Shown in pieces: positions 28,919 to 57,403 of a DNA stretch of 64,000 nt. Origin of the DNA: Candidatus Rokuibacteriota bacterium. GTDB taxonomy: Bacteria > Methylomirabilota > Methylomirabilia > Rokubacteriales > CSP1-6. The notes beneath the pieces are model-generated. The model was not told the origin of the DNA. It worked only from the letters and a program-made list of their open reading frames with translations, and did not search any database. Every line of letters starts with the position of its first letter. Position 1 is the stretch's first letter. The DNA lies in contig QHSR01000242.1 in NCBI GenBank assembly GCA_003221635.1, positions 11,396-75,395 on the forward strand, read 5' to 3'. The translations under genes and the position numbers were made by a program.

Positions 28919-29005
28919 TCTCCTTCCATCCAGAAGGACGTCGAGCCCCGTCCGGAACGTTCGCGCCATCCTCACCCAGGGCCGCGACGAGCTCGCGGAC
29001 GGGCG

Positions 29006-29674
29006 TCACGGCTTCCGGAGCAGGATCGACCCGAAGACGGATTCTGCGAATGAGGTGGTGTCGTCCGAGTCGATGGCGATCGAGATGTATCCCGGGCTGT
29101 CAGGCTCGGCGCCGTAAATCTTCTTGTAGTCCTCGACCACGTTGCGCCGCTCGGTGATCCACTTGCCGAGATCGGCCGGGCCGGAGCGCATGACGACGTA
29201 GGTGACCGTCGAGGTCTTTTCGCTCTTCACGATGCTGCCGGCCGGTGCCGTCGTGTCCCAGATGTAGCCGATGATCTGCGAGCGCACCGCCTCCGGGAAG
29301 CGCGGCCACACCACATAGAGCTGAGCCGCCTGGTCGTCGGCGCTCTTCTTCCGGCAATCGCCGTTCTTCGGCAGCGTGACCGCCTTCCAGCTCCACACGA
29401 GAATCGGCGTCTCTTTGAGATTGACCTTGCCTCTGATGTCCTTCCTGATGACCGAGCTCTCGATCTTGCTCCTGAGGTGAAGGACCCGATGGCCCTCGTT
29501 CTCCTCGATCGTCATGTCGTACTGCGGCAAGCCCCAGTTCTGGCCGCCCAGCCAGCCCTCCGGAACACCCCGGGCCCCGAGTTTCTGGCTCTTCCAGTCG
29601 TCGATGACGACGTCGGCCCCCCACGCGGCGACCGTGAATACGAGTAAGAACGCCGGCACCACGAGCCGTGTCAT
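29006..29674 (-). CDS. DUF3047-family secreted protein
   Basis: 222 aa with a signal peptide (MTRLVVPAFLLVFTVAAWG) and family-like blocks (VLHLRS, LVWSWKA, AAQLYVVW). Lower GC than neighbouring genes. Confidence 0.7.
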   Translation of the reverse strand: MTRLVVPAFLLVFTVAAWGADVVIDDWKSQKLGARGVPEGWLGGQNWGLPQYDMTIEENEGHRVLHLRSKIESSVIRKDIRGKVNLKETPILVWSWKAVTLPKNGDCRKKSADDQAAQLYVVWPRFPEAVRSQIIGYIWDTTAPAGSIVKSEKTSTVTYVVMRSGPADLGKWITERRNVVEDYKKIYGAEPDSPGYISIAIDSDDTTSFAESVFGSILLRKP

Positions 29675-29712
29675 CGTCCGATGCTCCTTTGCGGCTATGA
29701 TACCGTCTCCGC

Positions 29713-30090
29713 GTGCAGGCCTCGCCCGATTCGATCCGCGTGGACAAGTGGCTCTGGGCCGCGCGCGTGTTCAAGACGCGGAGCCTGGCCTCGACCGCGT
29801 GCGATGGCGGCAAGGTGGACATCAACGACGAGGCGGCGAAGCCGGCCAGGCGTGTCCGTGCCGGCGATCTCATCAAGGTGACGCTGCCGCGAGGGCGCCG
29901 TCGCGTCCTGAAGGTTGCCGCCGTCGGCGACCGGCGCGGATCCGCGGAGGCGGCGCGGGTGCTCTACGAGGACTTGACGCCGCCCGAGCCCCCGCGTTCC
30001 CGCCTGGCGCCGCCGCCCGCGCGCGAGCCCGGTACCGGCCGACCCACCAAGCGCGAACGCCGCGATCTCGATCGCCTGCGCGGGTGGTAG
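29713..30090 (+). CDS. hslR: S4-domain RNA-binding protein (heat shock protein 15-like)
   Basis: IRVDKWLWAARVFKTRSLA...GGKVDIN is an S4 domain. Arg/Pro-rich tail. Confidence 0.8.
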   Translation: MQASPDSIRVDKWLWAARVFKTRSLASTACDGGKVDINDEAAKPARRVRAGDLIKVTLPRGRRRVLKVAAVGDRRGSAEAARVLYEDLTPPEPPRSRLAPPPAREPGTGRPTKRERRDLDRLRGW

Positions 30091-30366
30091 TGCGAGCCGA
30101 GGGGCGTCGCGTCCGCGAGGCGAGCCCTTCAGTGGGCCGGAGGTAGTGCGAGCCGAGGGGCGTCGCGTCCGCGAGGCGAGCCCTTCAGTGGGTCGGAGGT
30201 AGTGCGAGCCGAGGGGCGTCGCGTCCGCGAGGCGAGCCTTTCAGTGGGCCGGAGGTAGTGCGAGCCGAGGGGCGTCGCGTCCGCGAGGCGAGCCCTTCAG
30301 TGGGCCGGAGGTAGTGCGAGCCGAGGGGCGTCGCGTCCGCGAGGCGAGCCTTTCACTGGGCCGGAG
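30087..30366. repeat. Tandem repeat array, 5 x 56 bp
   Basis: The unit gtagtgcgagccgaggggcgtcgcgtccgcgaggcgagcccttcagtgggccggag starts at 30087, 30143, 30199, 30255 and 30311, with 1-2 substitutions per unit. The first unit contains the hslR TAG stop. The period is not a multiple of 3. Confidence 0.95.
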
Positions 30367-30426
30367 CGGCGCCGTGCCACGAGGCGATCACATCACTGGT
30401 GAGCTATAGTTTGGTCAACCTGAGCG

Positions 30427-31221
30427 GTGGAGCGTGTCATGGAAGGCTACGACTGGAACGCGATTGTCGACGGTCTCAACCGATATCTGCGACTGCGCTC
30501 GATCCCGATCGGTATGAAGCTCTTCGAGACGGTCGAGGCGATGGAGGCGATCCCGAAGATTCGTCGCCCGAAGGCCAAGCACACGACCGACCAGATCGTC
30601 GCCCAAGCGCGGCAGCTCGGCTGGACCGTCGGCGTCACAATGGCCGACCTCATCGGCGCCCAGTGTGGTGCCGTCATCGGGCTGCATCCCCAGGATGCCG
30701 AGTGGCTCTCGGGCCGCCGCATGGCGGGCGTATGGTTCAAGAGCGCCGAGGACGCCAGTTTGCACCAGCACGCGATGGACTGCGTGCCGCACGGCCGCTA
30801 CCGTGCAATGGCCGTCGCGCCGCTCACGTCGGGGCGGCTCGATCCGCCCGACATCTGCCTCATCTACGGCACGCCGGGGCAGATGATCTTCTTCATCAAC
30901 GGGCTCCAGTGGACGGGCTACCGCAAGCTGAGCTTCACCTCTGTCGGCGAATCGGCGTGCGCCGACTCGTGGGGGAAGGCCCTCAAAACCGGGGAGCCGG
31001 CCCTGACGATCCCGTGCTACGCCGAACGCCGCTACGGCGGCGTCGCGGACGATGAGCTCTTGATGGCGATTCCGCCGCGCTTTCTGCCCAAGGTGCTCGA
31101 GGGGCTAGCGGCGCTCGACAAGAATGGCCTGCGCTATCCGGTGCCGCCTTACGGCATCCAGTCGGACGCCGGCGCGGGGCTGGCGGTCAGCTACGCGGCG
31201 AAGGAGACGAGAGCGCAATGA
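30427..31221 (+). CDS. DUF169-family protein
   Basis: 264 aa with DUF169-like blocks (LRSIPIGMKLF, CGAVIG, ICLIYGTPGQM, ESACADSW). The ATG at 30439 is an alternative start. Confidence 0.75.
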   Translation: MERVMEGYDWNAIVDGLNRYLRLRSIPIGMKLFETVEAMEAIPKIRRPKAKHTTDQIVAQARQLGWTVGVTMADLIGAQCGAVIGLHPQDAEWLSGRRMAGVWFKSAEDASLHQHAMDCVPHGRYRAMAVAPLTSGRLDPPDICLIYGTPGQMIFFINGLQWTGYRKLSFTSVGESACADSWGKALKTGEPALTIPCYAERRYGGVADDELLMAIPPRFLPKVLEGLAALDKNGLRYPVPPYGIQSDAGAGLAVSYAAKETRAQ

Positions 31222-31676
31222 AACTGATCGGCGAGATCTTCGAGGTATTCAGGACCGCCCGTGAGGAGAAGATCAAGTACCTCGAGCGGGTCCCCCATTT
31301 CGAGGCGTGCAGCACGCGTCAGCTGCGCGCCGTCGCCGACATCGCGAAAGTCGTCGAGGTTCCCGAGCGGACCGTCCTGACCCGCCAGGGCGAGCCGGGC
31401 GACGAGTTCTTCATCATCATCGACGGCACCGCGCTGGTGACGCTCTCGATGCAGAAGCGGCACCGGCTCCGGCCCGGCGAGTTCTTCGGCGAGATGAGCT
31501 TGCTCGATGGCGAGCCCCGCTCGGCCACCGTGAAGGCCGAGACCGATCTGCGCGTGCTCGTGATCAATCGCATCAATTTCTGGCAGCTCCTGAGAGAAGT
31601 CCCGGAGCTGACGCAGAAGATGCTCGTGAACCTCTCGCGCCGCATCCGGGATCTCGAGAACGCCGTGAACGCTTGA
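31218..31676 (+). CDS. Stand-alone cyclic-nucleotide-binding domain protein
   Basis: cNMP-binding signature GEFFGEMSLLDGEPRSATV. ATGA overlap with the DUF169 gene. No DNA-binding domain. Confidence 0.85.
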   Translation: MKLIGEIFEVFRTAREEKIKYLERVPHFEACSTRQLRAVADIAKVVEVPERTVLTRQGEPGDEFFIIIDGTALVTLSMQKRHRLRPGEFFGEMSLLDGEPRSATVKAETDLRVLVINRINFWQLLREVPELTQKMLVNLSRRIRDLENAVNA

Positions 31677-32526: not shown

Positions 32527-32679
32527 GGCTTTCCTCCCGAGGGTCGACGAAGATGCTTGACCCTATCACCGATACCGGGGGAAACGCGAGGTCGCCAGTG
32601 GGCTCGACCGAGCGGGCGCGCCGGCCGCCCGGTTGCACTCCGGCCGCGATTTTGTTAGCGTTCCCGGCGTTGCGCGCGT

Positions 32680-32845
32680 CCGGGAGGCCCACGAGGGCCC
32701 AGGGAAGGCGGTAGAAGCCGCCGCGACCCCGTCACTGTGATCGGGGACGAAACCCGCGAGTGCCACTGGCCGGCAGCAGGGTCGGGAAGGCGCGGGGAGT
32801 AGGACGATCCGAGAGCCAGGAGACCTGCCCGGGCGCCTATCCGAA
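32680..32845 (+). promoter_or_regulatory. Cobalamin (B12) riboswitch
   Basis: AGGGAAGGCGGTAGAAGCC, GCGACCCCGTCACTGT, GCCACTGG...GGGAAGGCG and the B12 box GAGAGCCAGGAGACCTGCCC (32811-32830), all in the canonical order. It lies directly upstream of cobU. The boundaries are approximate. Confidence 0.85.
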
Positions 32846-32873
32846 ACCGGTCTTCGAGGGAGGATCCGGGCAG

Positions 32874-33413
32874 GTGGTCTCGTCGCTCTTCATCGTCGGC
32901 GGCGCCCGCAGCGGAAAGAGCCGCTTCGCCGTCGATCGGATCCCCTCGCGGGAGAGAATCGTCTTTGTCGCGACGGCGGAGGCTCGCGACCAGGACATGG
33001 CGGCGCGCATCGCGCGCCATCGCGCCGAGCGCCCGTCGCACTGGGCGACGGTCGAGGAGCCCCTCGACCTCGTTCCGCGCCTGGAGAAGCTCGAGGGCAC
33101 CTGCGATGGCATCGTCGTCGACTGTCTCACGCTCTGGGTTGCGAACCGACTGCTGCGCGGCGAGCCGGACGACGCGATCCTCGGTGAGTCGGACGCGCTC
33201 GCGCGGCTGATCGGGCGCCGCCGGTCGAGCTTCACCGTGGTGTCGAACGAGGTCGGTGCGGGTGTGCACCCGGAAACCGCGACGGGCATGCGCTTCCGCG
33301 ACCTGCTGGGCGGCGTGAACCAGCGCGTCGCGGCGGCCTGCGACACCGTCGTGCTGATGGTCGCGGGCGTTCCGCTCACCGTCAAGACTCCGTCGGCGAC
33401 CCGCGAACGATGA
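32874..33413 (+). CDS. cobU: Adenosylcobinamide kinase / adenosylcobinamide-phosphate guanylyltransferase
   Basis: P-loop GGARSGKS. Start moved to the in-frame GTG at 32874, because the upstream part of the track ORF is the riboswitch. An SD-like GAGGGAGGA precedes the start. Confidence 0.9.
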   Translation: MVSSLFIVGGARSGKSRFAVDRIPSRERIVFVATAEARDQDMAARIARHRAERPSHWATVEEPLDLVPRLEKLEGTCDGIVVDCLTLWVANRLLRGEPDDAILGESDALARLIGRRRSSFTVVSNEVGAGVHPETATGMRFRDLLGGVNQRVAAACDTVVLMVAGVPLTVKTPSATRER

Positions 33414-34477
33414 CACGCCTCTCCAGGCTCCTCGGCTCGATCGCGCCGCCTCCTTCGGACGGAGCCGACGCGGCCCAGCGCCATCTCGATAGCCTGACAA
33501 AGCCGCCCCGGAGCCTGGGACGGCTCGAGGAGATTGCGCTCCGCCTCGCTCTCCTGCGCGGCCGTGCTCCCGAGGTCGCACACCCCGTGATCTTCACGTT
33601 CGCGGCGGATCACGGCGTCGTCGTGGAGGGCGTCAGCGCCTACCCCCAGGTCGTGACGGCGCAGATGGTCGAGAACTTCCTGCGCGGGGGCGCGGCGGTG
33701 AACGTTCTGGCGCGGCAGGCGGGGGCGCGCGTGGTGGTGGCCGATCTCGGCGTGGCCGGCCCGCTCCACCCGTCGCCGGGCCTCGTCGCGTGCCCCATCG
33801 GGCCGGGCACGGCCAACATCGCCGCGGGCCCAGCGATGACACCCGAGCAGGCGATGGGGGCGATCGAGGCCGGCGCGACGCTCGCCGAGGAGGCCCTCGA
33901 CGCCGGCGCCGATCTGCTGGCGACCGGCGAGATGGGCATCGGCAACACGACGGTGGCGAGCGCGATCGCGGCGGCCATCACGGGGGTCTCGGTGGAGCGC
34001 GTGACCGGAAGGGGCACCGGGGTGGACGACGCGACGCTGGCGCGCAAAGTGGCTGTTGTGCGCCGGGCACTCGAGATCAACCGGCCGGACGCCCGCGACG
34101 GGCTCGATGTCCTCGCGAAAGTCGGCGGCTTCGAGATCGGTGGCCTCGTCGGCGTGATTCTCGCCGGCGCCGCGCGGCGCGTCCCGGTGGTGCTCGACGG
34201 TTTCATCGCGGGGGCGGGGGCGCTGATCGCCGTCGCGCTCGCGCCCGCGACGCGGCACGTCCTCTTCGCCTCGCATCGCTCCGCCGAGCCCGGCCACGCC
34301 TTCGTTCTCCGCCACCTCGGGCTCGAGCCGTACCTCGACCTCTCGCTGCGCCTCGGCGAGGGCACCGGCGCCGCGCTCTTCATTCATCTCGCCCGCGCCG
34401 CCGCCCTCGTGTGGAGCGAGATGGCGACCTTCAAGACCGCCGGCGTGAGCGAGTCGCCCCGGGCGTCTGATCGATGA
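33410..34477 (+). CDS. cobT: Nicotinate-nucleotide--dimethylbenzimidazole phosphoribosyltransferase
   Basis: LTKPPRSLGRLEE...GEMGIGNTT. ATGA overlap with cobU. Confidence 0.9.
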   Translation: MTRLSRLLGSIAPPPSDGADAAQRHLDSLTKPPRSLGRLEEIALRLALLRGRAPEVAHPVIFTFAADHGVVVEGVSAYPQVVTAQMVENFLRGGAAVNVLARQAGARVVVADLGVAGPLHPSPGLVACPIGPGTANIAAGPAMTPEQAMGAIEAGATLAEEALDAGADLLATGEMGIGNTTVASAIAAAITGVSVERVTGRGTGVDDATLARKVAVVRRALEINRPDARDGLDVLAKVGGFEIGGLVGVILAGAARRVPVVLDGFIAGAGALIAVALAPATRHVLFASHRSAEPGHAFVLRHLGLEPYLDLSLRLGEGTGAALFIHLARAAALVWSEMATFKTAGVSESPRASDR

Positions 34478-41394: not shown

Positions 41395-41846
41395 TATGAC
41401 AGTCAGTTACATCGCTGAGCCTCAGAGAGGACTGGAATCAGCGCCCGGCGCACGGACCGTCTCCACCCGAGACCCGCGGATGCGCCCGAACTCGCCGGAG
41501 CCGTCCGTGCGCTCGCGCGACTCGCTCCTGGCACGCCTCGCCCGCGCGGGCACATCGCCCCGGCCGCGCGGCGTGTCGCGCAACCGTCGACCCCACTGAA
41601 CCGCTCGCCTCGCGGCGCGCGTCGCCGAGCCGCTGCGCCCGTCGATGGGCCCGCACGATCGTCGTCTCCGTTTGCCTCGAGCCGCGCGACCCCGGCGCGG
41701 CGACGTCCGGCGGCTCGCACGGCCAGGCATCGTCGCGCATCTCGCGCCGCGCACCGGGGCTCGGCGTCGGGCCACTCCGTGGCTCGCGCCGCTGTCCGCT
41801 TTTTCTTCGTCACGACGCAGTGCCGGGCAGGTACCCTGTTACGCGA

Positions 41847-56340: not shown

Positions 56341-57239
56341 CCGCCTCGCTCGAGGCCCGGTCGGCTGCAGCAGGTTCAGCGAACGCCACGCCGCCGACGG
56401 GGACCGCCGTCGAGGCCGTCGCGGTGCTCACCGGCTGGGGTCACGGCATCCGCGCCTTGCCGGCGGACGCTGAGCGGGCGGCGGCGGGCCGGGCGGTGAT
56501 CCCGCTCTTCCGTCCGGTACTCGAGGGCGAGCGGTTCAGGCGGGCTACTCGGGAGTGTCTGCTGGGCGTGGCGGCCGTGGACGCCCTCCTGCGCGAGAGC
56601 GGCATCACCCGTGACATGATACGCGGAAGCGCGACCGCGCTGATCTACGTCACCGGCGCCGGCTATGGCGCCTCGAATCAGGCGTTTGTCGTAGCGGAGT
56701 CCTTGAGGCAAGCTCGCATCGAGGGTGGCCTGACGGACAAGCGACCCGGCTCGGTCGCATCGAGCGGCACGTTGCACTTCCCGTACACGGCGCCCAGCGC
56801 GATGGCCGGTGAGGTTGCGATCGAGTTCGGACTGACCGGCCCGTATGGCATCCTGATCGGCGGAGCCGCCACGACGATCGATGCCCTCTGGCAGGCGACG
56901 CGACTCCTGGCCGGCGGACGGTGCGAGCGCGCGCTCGTGCTCGCCGTCGAGACCTTCGAGGAGTGTGCCGCCCTCTACGCGCGGGGACGCTGGCTCGTCA
57001 GGCGCCCGCTGGTCGAAGCGGCGGTATGCGCGCTGCTCGTGCCCGGCGCTCTGCGCGCGAGATACGACGCGCCGCGGACGCCGTCGACGCTCGAGACGCT
57101 CGCACGCGTCCGCGCCGGCGAGACGCTCGCGTGCGCGCCGCTGATCGCGCTGGCGCTCGCGCGCGACGGCGGCGCAGCGGGATCGGTCAGCGTCACGGGC
57201 GAATGGCGCGGCCGCCGCGCCGGACTCCACTGGCAGTAG
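56337..57239 (+). CDS. KS-like partner protein lacking the active-site Cys (chain-length-factor-like)
   Basis: ATGA overlap with the upstream KS. Thiolase-fold block AGEVAIEFGLTGPYGILIGGAATTIDAL, where TAC(A/S)S is replaced by GGAAT. Only 300 aa. Confidence 0.75.
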   Translation: MTASLEARSAAAGSANATPPTGTAVEAVAVLTGWGHGIRALPADAERAAAGRAVIPLFRPVLEGERFRRATRECLLGVAAVDALLRESGITRDMIRGSATALIYVTGAGYGASNQAFVVAESLRQARIEGGLTDKRPGSVASSGTLHFPYTAPSAMAGEVAIEFGLTGPYGILIGGAATTIDALWQATRLLAGGRCERALVLAVETFEECAALYARGRWLVRRPLVEAAVCALLVPGALRARYDAPRTPSTLETLARVRAGETLACAPLIALALARDGGAAGSVSVTGEWRGRRAGLHWQ

Positions 57240-57244
57240 TGGTC

Positions 57245-57403
57245 GTAGGAGCCGAACGGCGCCGCGCCGAGAGGCGACGCTTCAATGGGTCGAGGGAGTA
57301 GGAGCCGAACGGTGCCGCGCCGAGAGGCGACGCTTCAGTGGCTCGAGATAGTAGGAGCCGAACGGCGTCACGCCGAGAGGCGACGCTTCAGAGCCTAGGA
57401 GGG
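57245..57403. repeat. Tandem repeat array, 3 x 53 bp, related to the 56-bp array at 30087
   Basis: Units start at 57245, 57298 and 57351 (gtaggagccgaacggcgccgcgccgagaggcgacgcttcaatgggtcgaggga). The last unit supplies the AGGAGG in front of the ACP ATG. Confidence 0.9.

What the first reader, a model, noticed from the sequence alone, without database searches (positions are those of the whole stretch)
30087..30366. 5 x 56-bp near-perfect tandem repeat between hslR and a DUF169/cNMP-binding gene pair
Five head-to-tail 56-bp units carry only 1-2 substitutions each. The array begins with the hslR stop codon and ends about 60-70 nt before the DUF169 gene. That gene is translationally coupled (ATGA) to a stand-alone cyclic-nucleotide-binding domain protein.

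Each unit contains an internal 7-nt direct repeat GCGAGCC spaced 28 nt apart, and a GGAGGTAGTG (SD plus GTG-like) motif. There are no spacers, so it is not a CRISPR array. The period of 56 excludes coding.

Such high unit identity implies recent expansion or ongoing homogenisation. Copy number may therefore be variable and could tune expression of the uncharacterised DUF169-cNMP pair.
Basis: seen in the sequence. Interest (0 to 1): 0.6.

Follow-up and report, generated by a model that had tools for sequence, protein, structure and literature searches.

The report
REP-like hairpin repeat, locally amplified
The five 56-bp repeats are real, but they are a locally amplified, copy-number-variable copy of a short hairpin repeat scattered at about 80 gene junctions in this soil Rokubacteria genome, so they are an ordinary REP-like element and not a control device specific to the neighbouring genes.

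Summary
In detail: window 30086-30366 holds 5.0 head-to-tail copies of a 56-bp unit (97% matches). It starts on the TAG stop of an S4-domain (hslR-like) gene and ends 72 nt before a DUF169 gene, which overlaps a cNMP-binding gene by ATGA.

The array is not locus-specific. Each unit is a 36-nt imperfect palindrome plus a 20-nt linker.

A profile census finds 119 units at 83 loci in this 5.2-Mb MAG. 78 loci are intergenic. 58 are solo and 25 are head-to-tail arrays; this is the largest. Hairpins are kept by compensatory changes. Elements point the same way as flanking genes (42 vs 15), avoid convergent gaps and abut upstream stop codons.

Independent assemblies with identical flanking proteins carry 1 or 2 units, against 5 here. 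Other species show empty, decayed or independently occupied sites right after the hslR stop (GGTAG).

The closest known kind is the GTAG-tagged REP. However, no RAYT transposase is present in the genus, and arrays are head-to-tail, as in MIRUs. Any effect on DUF169 expression is untested. Read and transcript mapping were unavailable.

The parts
29713..30090 (+). hslR-like S4-domain gene (125 aa). Its TAG stop (30088-30090) is the TAG of the first unit's GGTAG tag.
   Evidence: ORF list; Pfam S4, E 4e-9; native gene end ...TGG TAG in many species without the element
30086..30366 (+). Array of 5 x 56 bp, class S of the family. Units start at 30086, 30142, 30198, 30254 and 30310.
   Evidence: TRF period 56, 5.0 copies, 97%; unit listing; profile hits E 1e-9 to 1e-11
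30090..30125 (+). Hairpin module of unit 1 (GTGCGAGCC-GA-GGGGCG TCG CGTCC-GC-GAGGCGAGC). The outer stem is GCGAGCC/GGCGAGC with a tandem G.A, and there is an inner 5-bp stem. It repeats every 56 nt.
   Evidence: Covariation over 18 distinct class-S units: 84.8% paired vs 67.5% in shuffles (0/500 reach it), 7 of 11 pairs with compensatory changes
30126..30145 (+). Linker of unit 1 (CCTTCAGTGGGCCGGAGGTA). The class-S consensus is CTTCAGTGGnTCGAGA. It ends in the GGTAG tag of the next unit.
   Evidence: Seed alignment of class-S units from 8 loci
30366..30391 (+). Degenerate, headless sixth unit (GCGGCGCCGTGCCACGAGGCGATCAC). It is homologous to the unit core of the closest relatives L001/L003.
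   Evidence: Comparison of orthologous spacers
30402..30438 (+). Conserved block AGCTATAGTTTGGTCAACCTGAGCGGTGGAGCGTGTC upstream of DUF169. It may hold a -10 (TATAGT) and an SD (GGTGGAG). It is present in relatives with or without units.
   Evidence: Conserved in L001-L006, L009-L013, L015 and L069; no full sigma-70 consensus by scan
30439..31221 (+). DUF169 gene (260 aa)
   Evidence: Pfam PF02596, E 2e-40
31218..31676 (+). Stand-alone cNMP-binding protein, ATGA overlap with DUF169
   Evidence: Pfam PF00027, E 2e-21; ORF coordinates
57245..57391 (+). Sister class-S array, 2.8 x 53 bp, between a ketoacyl-synthase-like gene (stop TAG 57237-57239) and an ACP-like gene (ATG 57406)
   Evidence: TRF; profile hits; 3 units in most strains and 1 in L123
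2362..2425 (-). Solo class-L member of the same family (33-nt core hairpin)
   Evidence: nhmmer E 5e-12 at C71:13757-13820

Best explanation
The array is a recently amplified, copy-number-variable member of a lineage-specific family of REP-like palindromic intergenic elements of Rokubacteria.

**Shown.**
- Each unit is a GG(T/C)(A/C/G)GT tag, then a hairpin whose outer stem GCG(A/C)GCC / GGCG(A/C)GC carries a tandem G.A or two G-C pairs, then a variable inner stem-loop, then a roughly 20-nt linker.
- The family has about 120 units at about 83 loci in this genome. They are solo or strictly head-to-tail, nearly all intergenic, and mostly in the sense orientation of the flanking genes. Their 5' ends lie on or within about 13 nt of the upstream stop codon.
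- At this junction the ancestral state is a tight hslR-DUF169 operon joint. Elements of three classes were acquired independently, immediately 3' of the hslR stop (...TGG TAG), without target duplication.
- The class-S copy in this clade has since decayed, been deleted or expanded to 1, 2 or 5 units.

**Inferred.**
- Spread is by a single-strand, hairpin-recognising insertion mechanism that places the element 3' of a GTAG-like tetranucleotide, as proposed for REPs. The enzyme is unknown, because the genus lacks RAYT.
- Local growth from one to five units is by replication slippage or unequal recombination between 56-bp units.
- As part of the hslR read-through transcript, the five sense-strand hairpins most likely act generically. 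They would protect the hslR 3' end, impede read-through and uncouple DUF169 from hslR, leaving DUF169 dependent on the conserved TATAGT/SD block downstream of the array.
- Copy number may therefore modulate expression as a side effect, not as a dedicated switch.
For: - **Array and anatomy:**
- **Genome-wide tandem repeats sharing the motif:**
- **Profile census (119 units, 83 loci, classes L, S and X):**
- **Context:** 78 of 83 loci intergenic; 42 sense vs 15 antisense between co-directional genes (p = 0.0005); 3 of 75 convergent vs 15-19% expected (p about 0.002 or less).
- **Array structure:** 58 solo loci and 25 arrays, with no inverted neighbours.
- **Hairpin covariation:** class L has 5 of 15 pairs compensatory. 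Class S has 84.8% paired, 7 of 11 pairs compensatory and a score of 0.365 vs 0.135 or less in slid controls.
- **Stop codon inside the tag:** 6 of 29 nearby loci, including this one.
- **Orthologous junctions:** empty, decayed, or independently filled by classes S and L and a third type, always right after the stop. L049 is a clean insertion without duplication.
- **Copy-number polymorphism with identical flanking proteins:**, and for the sister array.
- **Distribution:** family present in 8 of 9 genomes of the genus, reversed-pattern controls 0.
- **Literature:** GTAG REPs lie <20 bp from upstream ORF ends and often donate the TAG stop (PMC3733652).
Against: - No Y1/RAYT transposase in this MAG or in any of 9 genomes of the genus. 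Y1 genes of sister genera are not flanked by the element. So the insertion mechanism is unsupported by any enzyme.
- The GTAG tag is exact in only 21 of 105 units.
- Thermodynamic folding of a unit or of the whole array is no better than dinucleotide shuffles (z = -1.2 and -0.96). Support for the hairpin rests on covariation.
- No transcript data exist. The RNA-level role and any effect on DUF169 are inference.
- The 5-unit allele is seen only in this MAG. The inter-unit junction was not found in JGI metagenome contigs.
Confidence: 0.75

Rival explanations
1. A dedicated cis-regulatory rheostat for the DUF169/cNMP-binding pair. Unit number would set promoter spacing or 5'-UTR structure and tune that operon specifically.
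For: The array lies directly upstream of a conserved TATAGT/SD block and the DUF169 start. Copy number varies between near-identical strains.
Against: - The same element family sits at 83 unrelated junctions.
- The element is absent or decayed at this site in many species that keep DUF169 and cNMP genes intact.
- The flanking proteins are 100% identical across the 1-, 2- and 5-unit alleles.
- The conserved block lies downstream of the array, not within it.
Confidence: 0.08
2. A MIRU-like translational relay. Ribosomes terminating at the hslR TAG would reinitiate at the overlapping GTG and pass through a chain of 18-codon mini-ORFs (TAGTG junctions, GGAGG just upstream), delivering ribosomes towards DUF169.
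For: Each unit reads VRAEGRRVREASPSVGRR*, with a 1-nt stop/start overlap. The last frame runs to the TAG at 30407-30409, 29 nt before the DUF169 ATG. MIRUs are proposed to work this way (PMC12548453).
Against: - The TAGTG junction is not conserved in other arrays of the family (C18, C255, C257, the 53-bp array).
- The frame from the stop-overlapping GTG to the TATAG stop is lost in L006, L011, L002, L004, L005 and L015.
- Array periods show no strong 3n+2 bias (17/10/9).
- Differences between units are mostly non-synonymous in that frame.
- GGAGG lies only 2 nt from the GTG.
Confidence: 0.05
3. The element is real, but the count of five is an assembly artefact: a de Bruijn cycle traversed several times in a mixed-strain metagenome.
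For: - Most independent contigs have 1 unit, one has 2, and one scaffold breaks in the array.
- The inter-unit junction is absent from JGI contigs.
- Reads could not be examined.
Against: - Units 2 and 3 carry linker variant combinations (CCC+GTC, CCT+CAGT+GCC) that occur in none of the 1- or 2-unit alleles. So reads with additional unit types must exist (inference).
- The same MEGAHIT assemblies resolve 3 x 53 bp at the sister array.
- Assembler errors usually collapse tandem repeats and do not expand them (established knowledge).
Confidence: 0.15
4. A DNA-level protein-binding array. As with BIMEs, which bind gyrase, IHF and Pol I, the units would act as chromosomal structural sites and not as RNA.
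For: REP/BIME precedents (PMC2817692 abstract). The units are regular and GC-rich.
Against: - The strong orientation bias relative to genes, the avoidance of convergent gaps, and the tandem G.A and G.U pairs that are stable on the sense strand only all point to a single-stranded, strand-specific form. G.U outnumbers A.C by 11 to 3 in class L.
- Sense-strand folding is -178 vs -132 kcal/mol for the antisense strand.
Confidence: 0.07

Closest known systems
GTAG-tagged REPs (repetitive extragenic palindromes; Di Nocera et al. 2013, PMC3733652; Nunvar et al. 2010, PMC2817692)
   Same: - A short GC-rich imperfect palindrome with a 5' GTAG-like tag.
- About 100 copies, nearly all extragenic.
- Placed within a few nt of the 3' end of the upstream ORF, with the tag's TAG often serving as that ORF's stop codon.
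- Several sequence classes in one genome, with rapid turnover between species.
   Different: - No RAYT in the genus, and the Y1 genes of sister genera are not flanked by the element.
- The tag is degenerate (GTAG in 20% of units).
- Units are solo or strictly head-to-tail, never head-to-head or tail-to-tail dimers.
- Frequent in divergent gaps and rare in convergent gaps, whereas REPs favour convergent and unidirectional gaps.
- The outer stem carries a conserved tandem G.A.
MIRUs / bacterial VNTR minisatellites (mycobacterial interspersed repetitive units)
   Same: - 40-100-bp units in head-to-tail arrays at operon junctions.
- Same orientation as the flanking genes.
- Copy number polymorphic between close strains.
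- In this array, small frames with overlapping stop and start codons.
   Different: - The frames are not conserved across the family or its orthologs.
- The elements abut stop codons, not start codons.
- The unit is a covarying hairpin.
- No sequence relationship was tested.
BIME-2 arrays of E. coli
   Same: Local tandem amplification of a REP-plus-linker module to many copies (from my own knowledge of Gilson/Bachellier's work).
   Different: The amplified BIME-2 unit is an inverted REP pair. Here it is one REP-like hairpin plus one linker, all in one orientation.

Membership tests
GTAG-tagged REP | Short imperfect palindrome that forms a stem-loop | tested here: met
   Compensatory changes in class L (5 of 15 pairs) and class S (7 of 11 pairs; 84.8% paired vs 67.5% in shuffles). 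Length is 36 nt (class S) to 50 nt (class L), at or above the usual 20-40 bp.
GTAG-tagged REP | Conserved GTAG tetranucleotide at one end | tested here: inconclusive
   The consensus is GG(T/C)(A/c/g)GT before the stem. GTAG is exact in 21 of 105 units, GCAG in 20, and G[TC][ACG]G in 67 of 105. It is exact (GGTAG) in all five units of this array.
GTAG-tagged REP | High copy number, extragenic, close to the 3' end of the upstream ORF; the tag can donate the TAG stop | tested here: met
   119 units at 83 loci, 78 of them intergenic. The stop is within 13 nt in most sense loci and inside the tag in 6, including hslR.
GTAG-tagged REP | Cognate RAYT (Y1 transposase) gene in the genome, flanked by the REPs | tested here: not met
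   PF01797 is absent from G000 and from all 9 genomes of the genus. The family is present in 8 of those 9 genomes. Eight Y1 loci from sister genera have no family element within +-2 kb.
GTAG-tagged REP | Inverted (HH/TT) dimers, as in BIME or REPIN | tested here: not met
   0 neighbouring loci in opposite orientation within 300 nt. All 25 arrays are head-to-tail.
MIRU-type minisatellite | 40-100-bp head-to-tail units in intergenic regions, co-oriented with the flanking genes, polymorphic in copy number | tested here: met
   Period 56; 42 vs 15 orientation; 1, 2 and 5 units among strains and 3 vs 1 at the sister array.
MIRU-type minisatellite | An internal ORF coupled by overlapping stop and start codons to the flanking genes, as a family feature | tested here: not met
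   Present in this array. It ends 29 nt before the DUF169 ATG, is not conserved in orthologous arrays or other arrays, and periods show no strong bias modulo 3.
CRISPR array | Repeats separated by unique spacers of similar length | tested here: not met
   The units are contiguous with no spacers.
Any Rfam RNA family | Match to a curated covariance model | tested here: not met
   Nothing at E <= 1 over 29000-31500 apart from two chance-level hits elsewhere. The gathering scan of the whole window finds only a cobalamin riboswitch.
Intrinsic terminator | GC-rich hairpin followed by a U tract | tested here: not met
   No terminator-like site in 29600-30600. The units have no T run.

The most novel reading that the evidence does not exclude
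The family may be a distinct, RAYT-independent kind of strand-polar 'operon punctuation' element. It would be a hairpin with an invariant tandem G.A, delivered by an unidentified single-strand-specific enzyme to the 3' side of GGTAG-like stop-codon contexts. It would amplify head-to-tail and be read on the mRNA by a Rokubacteria-specific factor. Unit number (1-5 at hslR/DUF169) would then set how strongly the downstream gene is uncoupled from the upstream one.
Probability: 0.12. Interest if true: 0.6.

Novelty: new member of a known kind. Interest (0 to 1): 0.3.

Why it matters
The finding assigns a conspicuous non-coding array in an uncultured soil phylum to a known kind of element, the REP-like or minisatellite repeat. 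This guards against over-reading it as a regulator of DUF169/cNMP genes.

It also gives practical and modest biological value:
- The hslR-DUF169 array (1, 2 or 5 units) and its 53-bp sister array are natural VNTR markers for tracking Rokubacteria strains in metagenomes.
- They are places where short-read assemblies break or disagree.
- The family's sense polarity, insertion at stop codons and lack of a RAYT in the genus add a data point to the open question of how REP-like elements spread without a dedicated transposase.

Tried and rejected
- **RAYT-driven REP.** Searched PF01797 in the MAG and in 121 genomes of the phylum, and inspected 8 Y1 loci from sister genera. There is no association.
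- **Translational relay of mini-ORFs.** It is present here, but the frame is not kept in orthologs or in other arrays.
- **Tail GAGG as a general SD for the downstream gene.** Some loci have GAGGCGAGC-N2-3-ATG, but most downstream genes have their own SD 10-25 nt after the tail.
- **Thermodynamic support for the hairpin.** z-scores are not significant. I relied on covariation instead.
- **Regex censuses.** These were too noisy, with 73/118 and 150/224 hits in the reversed-genome null. I replaced them with nhmmer profiles.
- **Target-site duplication.** The 'empty' sites L002/L004 (TAG-TGCGAGC-TATAG) are better read as deletion remnants between the head and tail repeats. L049 shows no duplication.
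- **Replication-strand polarity versus gene polarity.** The element strand is the G-rich strand in 50 of 77 loci, and it is co-oriented with genes in 42 of 57. The two are confounded, and gene orientation is the slightly better predictor.
- **Sigma-70 promoter or terminator in the region.** None found by consensus scan.
- **Exact multi-unit junction in JGI metagenome contigs.** No match.

Full report
**Observation.** TRF finds one outstanding tandem repeat in the window: 30086-30366, period 56, 5.0 copies, 97% matches, no indels, score 534. The five units differ at three positions only. The array begins inside the last two codons of an S4-domain, hslR-like gene (29713-30090; Pfam S4); that gene's TAG (30088-30090) is the TAG of the first unit's GGTAGTG. 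It ends 72 nt before the ATG (30439) of a DUF169 gene. The stop of DUF169 overlaps the start of a stand-alone cNMP-binding gene as ATGA. Two additions follow. A sixth, headless and degenerate unit lies at about 30366-30391. Each unit is also a closed 18-codon frame (VRAEGRRVREASPSVGRR*) whose TAG overlaps the next GTG by one base.

**Not a one-off.** A second array in the same window (57245-57391, 2.8 x 53 bp) has a visibly related consensus. TRF on the whole assembly (5.17 Mb, 335 contigs, 68% GC) shows dozens of 40-80-bp arrays, many sharing GTGCGAGCC...GAGGCGAGC. Regex censuses were too noisy, so I built nhmmer profiles for three length classes. They recover 119 units:
- 84 of class L (33-nt core hairpin);
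- 22 of class S (17-18-nt core plus a conserved linker CTTCAGTGGnTCGAGA; this class includes the array);
- 13 of class X (12-nt core).

The units fall into 83 loci: 58 solo, 16 doublets, 8 triplets and this one 5-mer, the largest array in the genome. No two neighbouring loci are in opposite orientation.

**Anatomy.** Head 5'-GCGAGCC and tail 5'-GGCGAGC are complementary except for a central tandem G.A. In a second variant both A's are C's (GCGCGCC...GGCGCGC), which turns the two G.A pairs into G-C pairs. Between the arms sits an inner stem-loop whose sequence differs between loci but stays paired.
- In 34 distinct class-L units, RNAalifold finds 15 pairs, 5 of them with compensatory double changes.
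- In 18 distinct class-S units from this genome and from orthologous sites in other species, 84.8% of cells pair, against 67.5% in shuffles (0 of 500 reach it). Seven of 11 pairs show changes on both sides. The covariation score is 0.365, against 0.135 or less when partners are slid.
- Thermodynamics alone is not informative. The unit and the whole array fold no better than dinucleotide shuffles (z = -1.2 and -0.96). The sense strand does fold far more stably than the antisense strand (-178 vs -132 kcal/mol).

A unit is therefore a GG(T/C)(A/c/g)GT tag, a 36-nt hairpin and a 20-nt linker. The tag is exactly GTAG in 21 of 105 units and in all five units here.

**Genomic context.** I called genes with a crude GC3-based caller (5202 genes, 87% coding). 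With those calls, 78 of 83 loci are intergenic.
- Between co-directional genes the element has the genes' orientation in 42 loci and the opposite in 15 (p = 0.0005).
- 15 loci lie in divergent gaps.
- Only 3 lie in convergent gaps, against 15-19% expected (p about 0.002 or less).
- Orientation also correlates with GC skew (50 of 77 loci), but that is confounded with gene strand bias.
- The 5' end typically abuts the upstream stop codon. In 6 of 29 loci with a nearby co-oriented upstream gene, that gene's TAG is the tag's TAG, as at hslR. In most others the stop lies 7-13 nt upstream.
- Downstream genes usually have their own SD 10-25 nt after the tail.

**Organism and history of this junction.** Relatives of the DUF169 protein come from Candidatus Rokuibacteriota/Methylomirabilota MAGs. 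hslR-DUF169 synteny holds in about 45 of 80 species.
- In the more distant species the two genes overlap or are <30 nt apart, with no element.
- In the clade nearest the window, a class-S element or its remnants follow the hslR stop. There are 2 units with a different core in L001/L003, other cores in L011 and L069, a deletion remnant TAG-TGCGAGC-TATAG in L002/L004/L005, and decayed pieces in L012, L013 and L015.
- A class-L element sits at exactly the same place in L049 (one unit) and L050 (two units). A third type sits there in L062.
- hslR natively ends ...TGG TAG (= GGTAG) in many species without the element. In L049, removing TGCGAGCC...GAGGCGAGC restores a normal short junction with no duplicated target.

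So this junction has been hit independently at least three times, always immediately 3' of the stop and in the sense orientation. The resident copy has since turned over quickly.

**Copy-number variation.** Contigs from other metagenome assemblies that encode exactly the same HslR and DUF169 proteins carry:
- 1 unit (17 contigs, three linker variants);
- 2 units (L091/L103);
- an N-filled scaffold gap inside the array (L110).

The window has 5 units. The length differences are exact multiples of 56. The sister 53-bp array has 3 units in most strains and 1 in L123. The same MEGAHIT assemblies that give 1-2 units at hslR resolve 3 x 53 bp there, so wholesale collapse is not the explanation. Units 2 and 3 of the window carry variant combinations found in none of the shorter alleles, so reads with extra unit types must exist (inference). 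The exact count of five remains unverified.

**What it is like, and what it is not.** The closest described kind is the GTAG-tagged REP. These are short palindromes with a 5' GTAG tag, lying <20 bp from the upstream ORF end and often donating its TAG stop (PMC3733652). Three defining or typical REP features fail here.
- There is no Y1/RAYT gene in this MAG or in any of 9 genomes of the genus, although 8 of those 9 carry the element. The classes rich in Y1 genes lack it.
- Y1 genes of sister genera have no element within +-2 kb.
- The units are never in inverted pairs.

The head-to-tail arrays, gene-sense polarity and strain-level copy-number variation recall MIRUs. MIRUs are thought to preserve expression through coupled mini-ORFs (PMC12548453). 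However, the mini-ORF chain of this array is not conserved in orthologs or in other arrays. There are no Rfam matches, no CRISPR architecture and no terminator-like T tracts. Full-text search found no paper describing such repeats in Rokubacteria. Earlier notes of this scan on other Rokubacteria genomes describe the same family. I treated them as leads and re-derived the points here.

**Mechanism (best estimate).**
- Shown: the family's anatomy, polarity, stop-codon placement, independent acquisition at this junction and copy-number polymorphism.
- Inferred: insertion of a folded single strand 3' of a GTAG-like site by an unidentified enzyme.
- Inferred: expansion from one to five units by slippage or unequal recombination.
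- Inferred: a generic RNA-level effect of five sense-strand hairpins in the hslR 3' region. This would be 3'-end protection, attenuated read-through and loss of the ancestral hslR-DUF169 coupling, with DUF169 relying on the conserved TATAGT/SD block (30402-30438) that persists in relatives with or without units.
- Untested: a dedicated role in tuning DUF169/cNMP. The family's ubiquity and the element's dispensability at this site make that role unlikely.

**Verdict.** This is a real, recently expanded and probably polymorphic array. It is an ordinary member of an undescribed REP-like family and not a novel regulatory device. Interest is low to moderate. The residual novelty lies in the family's strict polarity and the absence of a RAYT in the genus.

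Noticed in passing
window 32648-32846 (+): Cobalamin riboswitch (RF00174, 88.8 bits) upstream of the cobU/cobT-like genes at 32760-34477.
   Followed up: no
G000 contigs, e.g. C3:15129, C69:35745, C112:128, C158:7353, C189:14381, C296:32553: A different tandem or dispersed repeat family built around CTCAGGCCACCCTC / GAGGGTGGCCTGAGA (periods 54-78). A further family is built around GGGCGTATCGGAGCC (C64:53699 x7.6, C75:9909, C328:60161). The genome is unusually rich in 40-80-bp intergenic arrays.
   Followed up: no
G000 C38:35243, C155:22994, C93:411, C125:27854, C230:6157, C309:12314: Composite copies. A class-L element lies between the two arms of another class-L-like hairpin (...GTCGCGGGGC-GGCA-[element]-...-CCCCGCCGGCCGAGGCGCGAC). 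This composite recurs at several loci, which suggests nested insertion into a hairpin loop followed by spread of the composite.
   Followed up: partly
window 30402-30438 and orthologous loci L001-L015, L069: The block GCTATAGTTGGTCAAC...GGAGCGTGTC-ATG is conserved upstream of DUF169 in the clade that carries the element. It is absent in species where hslR and DUF169 overlap. It may be a promoter acquired after the operon joint was split.
   Followed up: partly
L110 (ENA ERZ28573528 scaffold_62157) and L106 (GCA_001919035.1 MNHB01000142.1): L110 has an N-filled scaffold gap with the hslR end duplicated on both sides of it, inside the array. In L106 no DUF169 gene was called although the flanking genes are intact. 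The array looks like a breakpoint or problem spot for short-read assemblies.
   Followed up: no
window 41603-41724 (-): Two weak, divergent family-like copies: C71:52998-53051 by regex, with a GGTTCAGTGG linker, and C71:53067-53119 by nhmmer (E 0.0085). They lie next to each other and may be decayed elements.
   Followed up: no
sister genera, loci L111-L118: A conserved single-copy gene of about 295 aa with a Y1_Tnp-like domain (MARPLRLQFPGGIYHVTARGNDR...) is present in several sister genera but in none of the 9 genomes of this genus. It is not flanked by the repeat family.
   Followed up: partly
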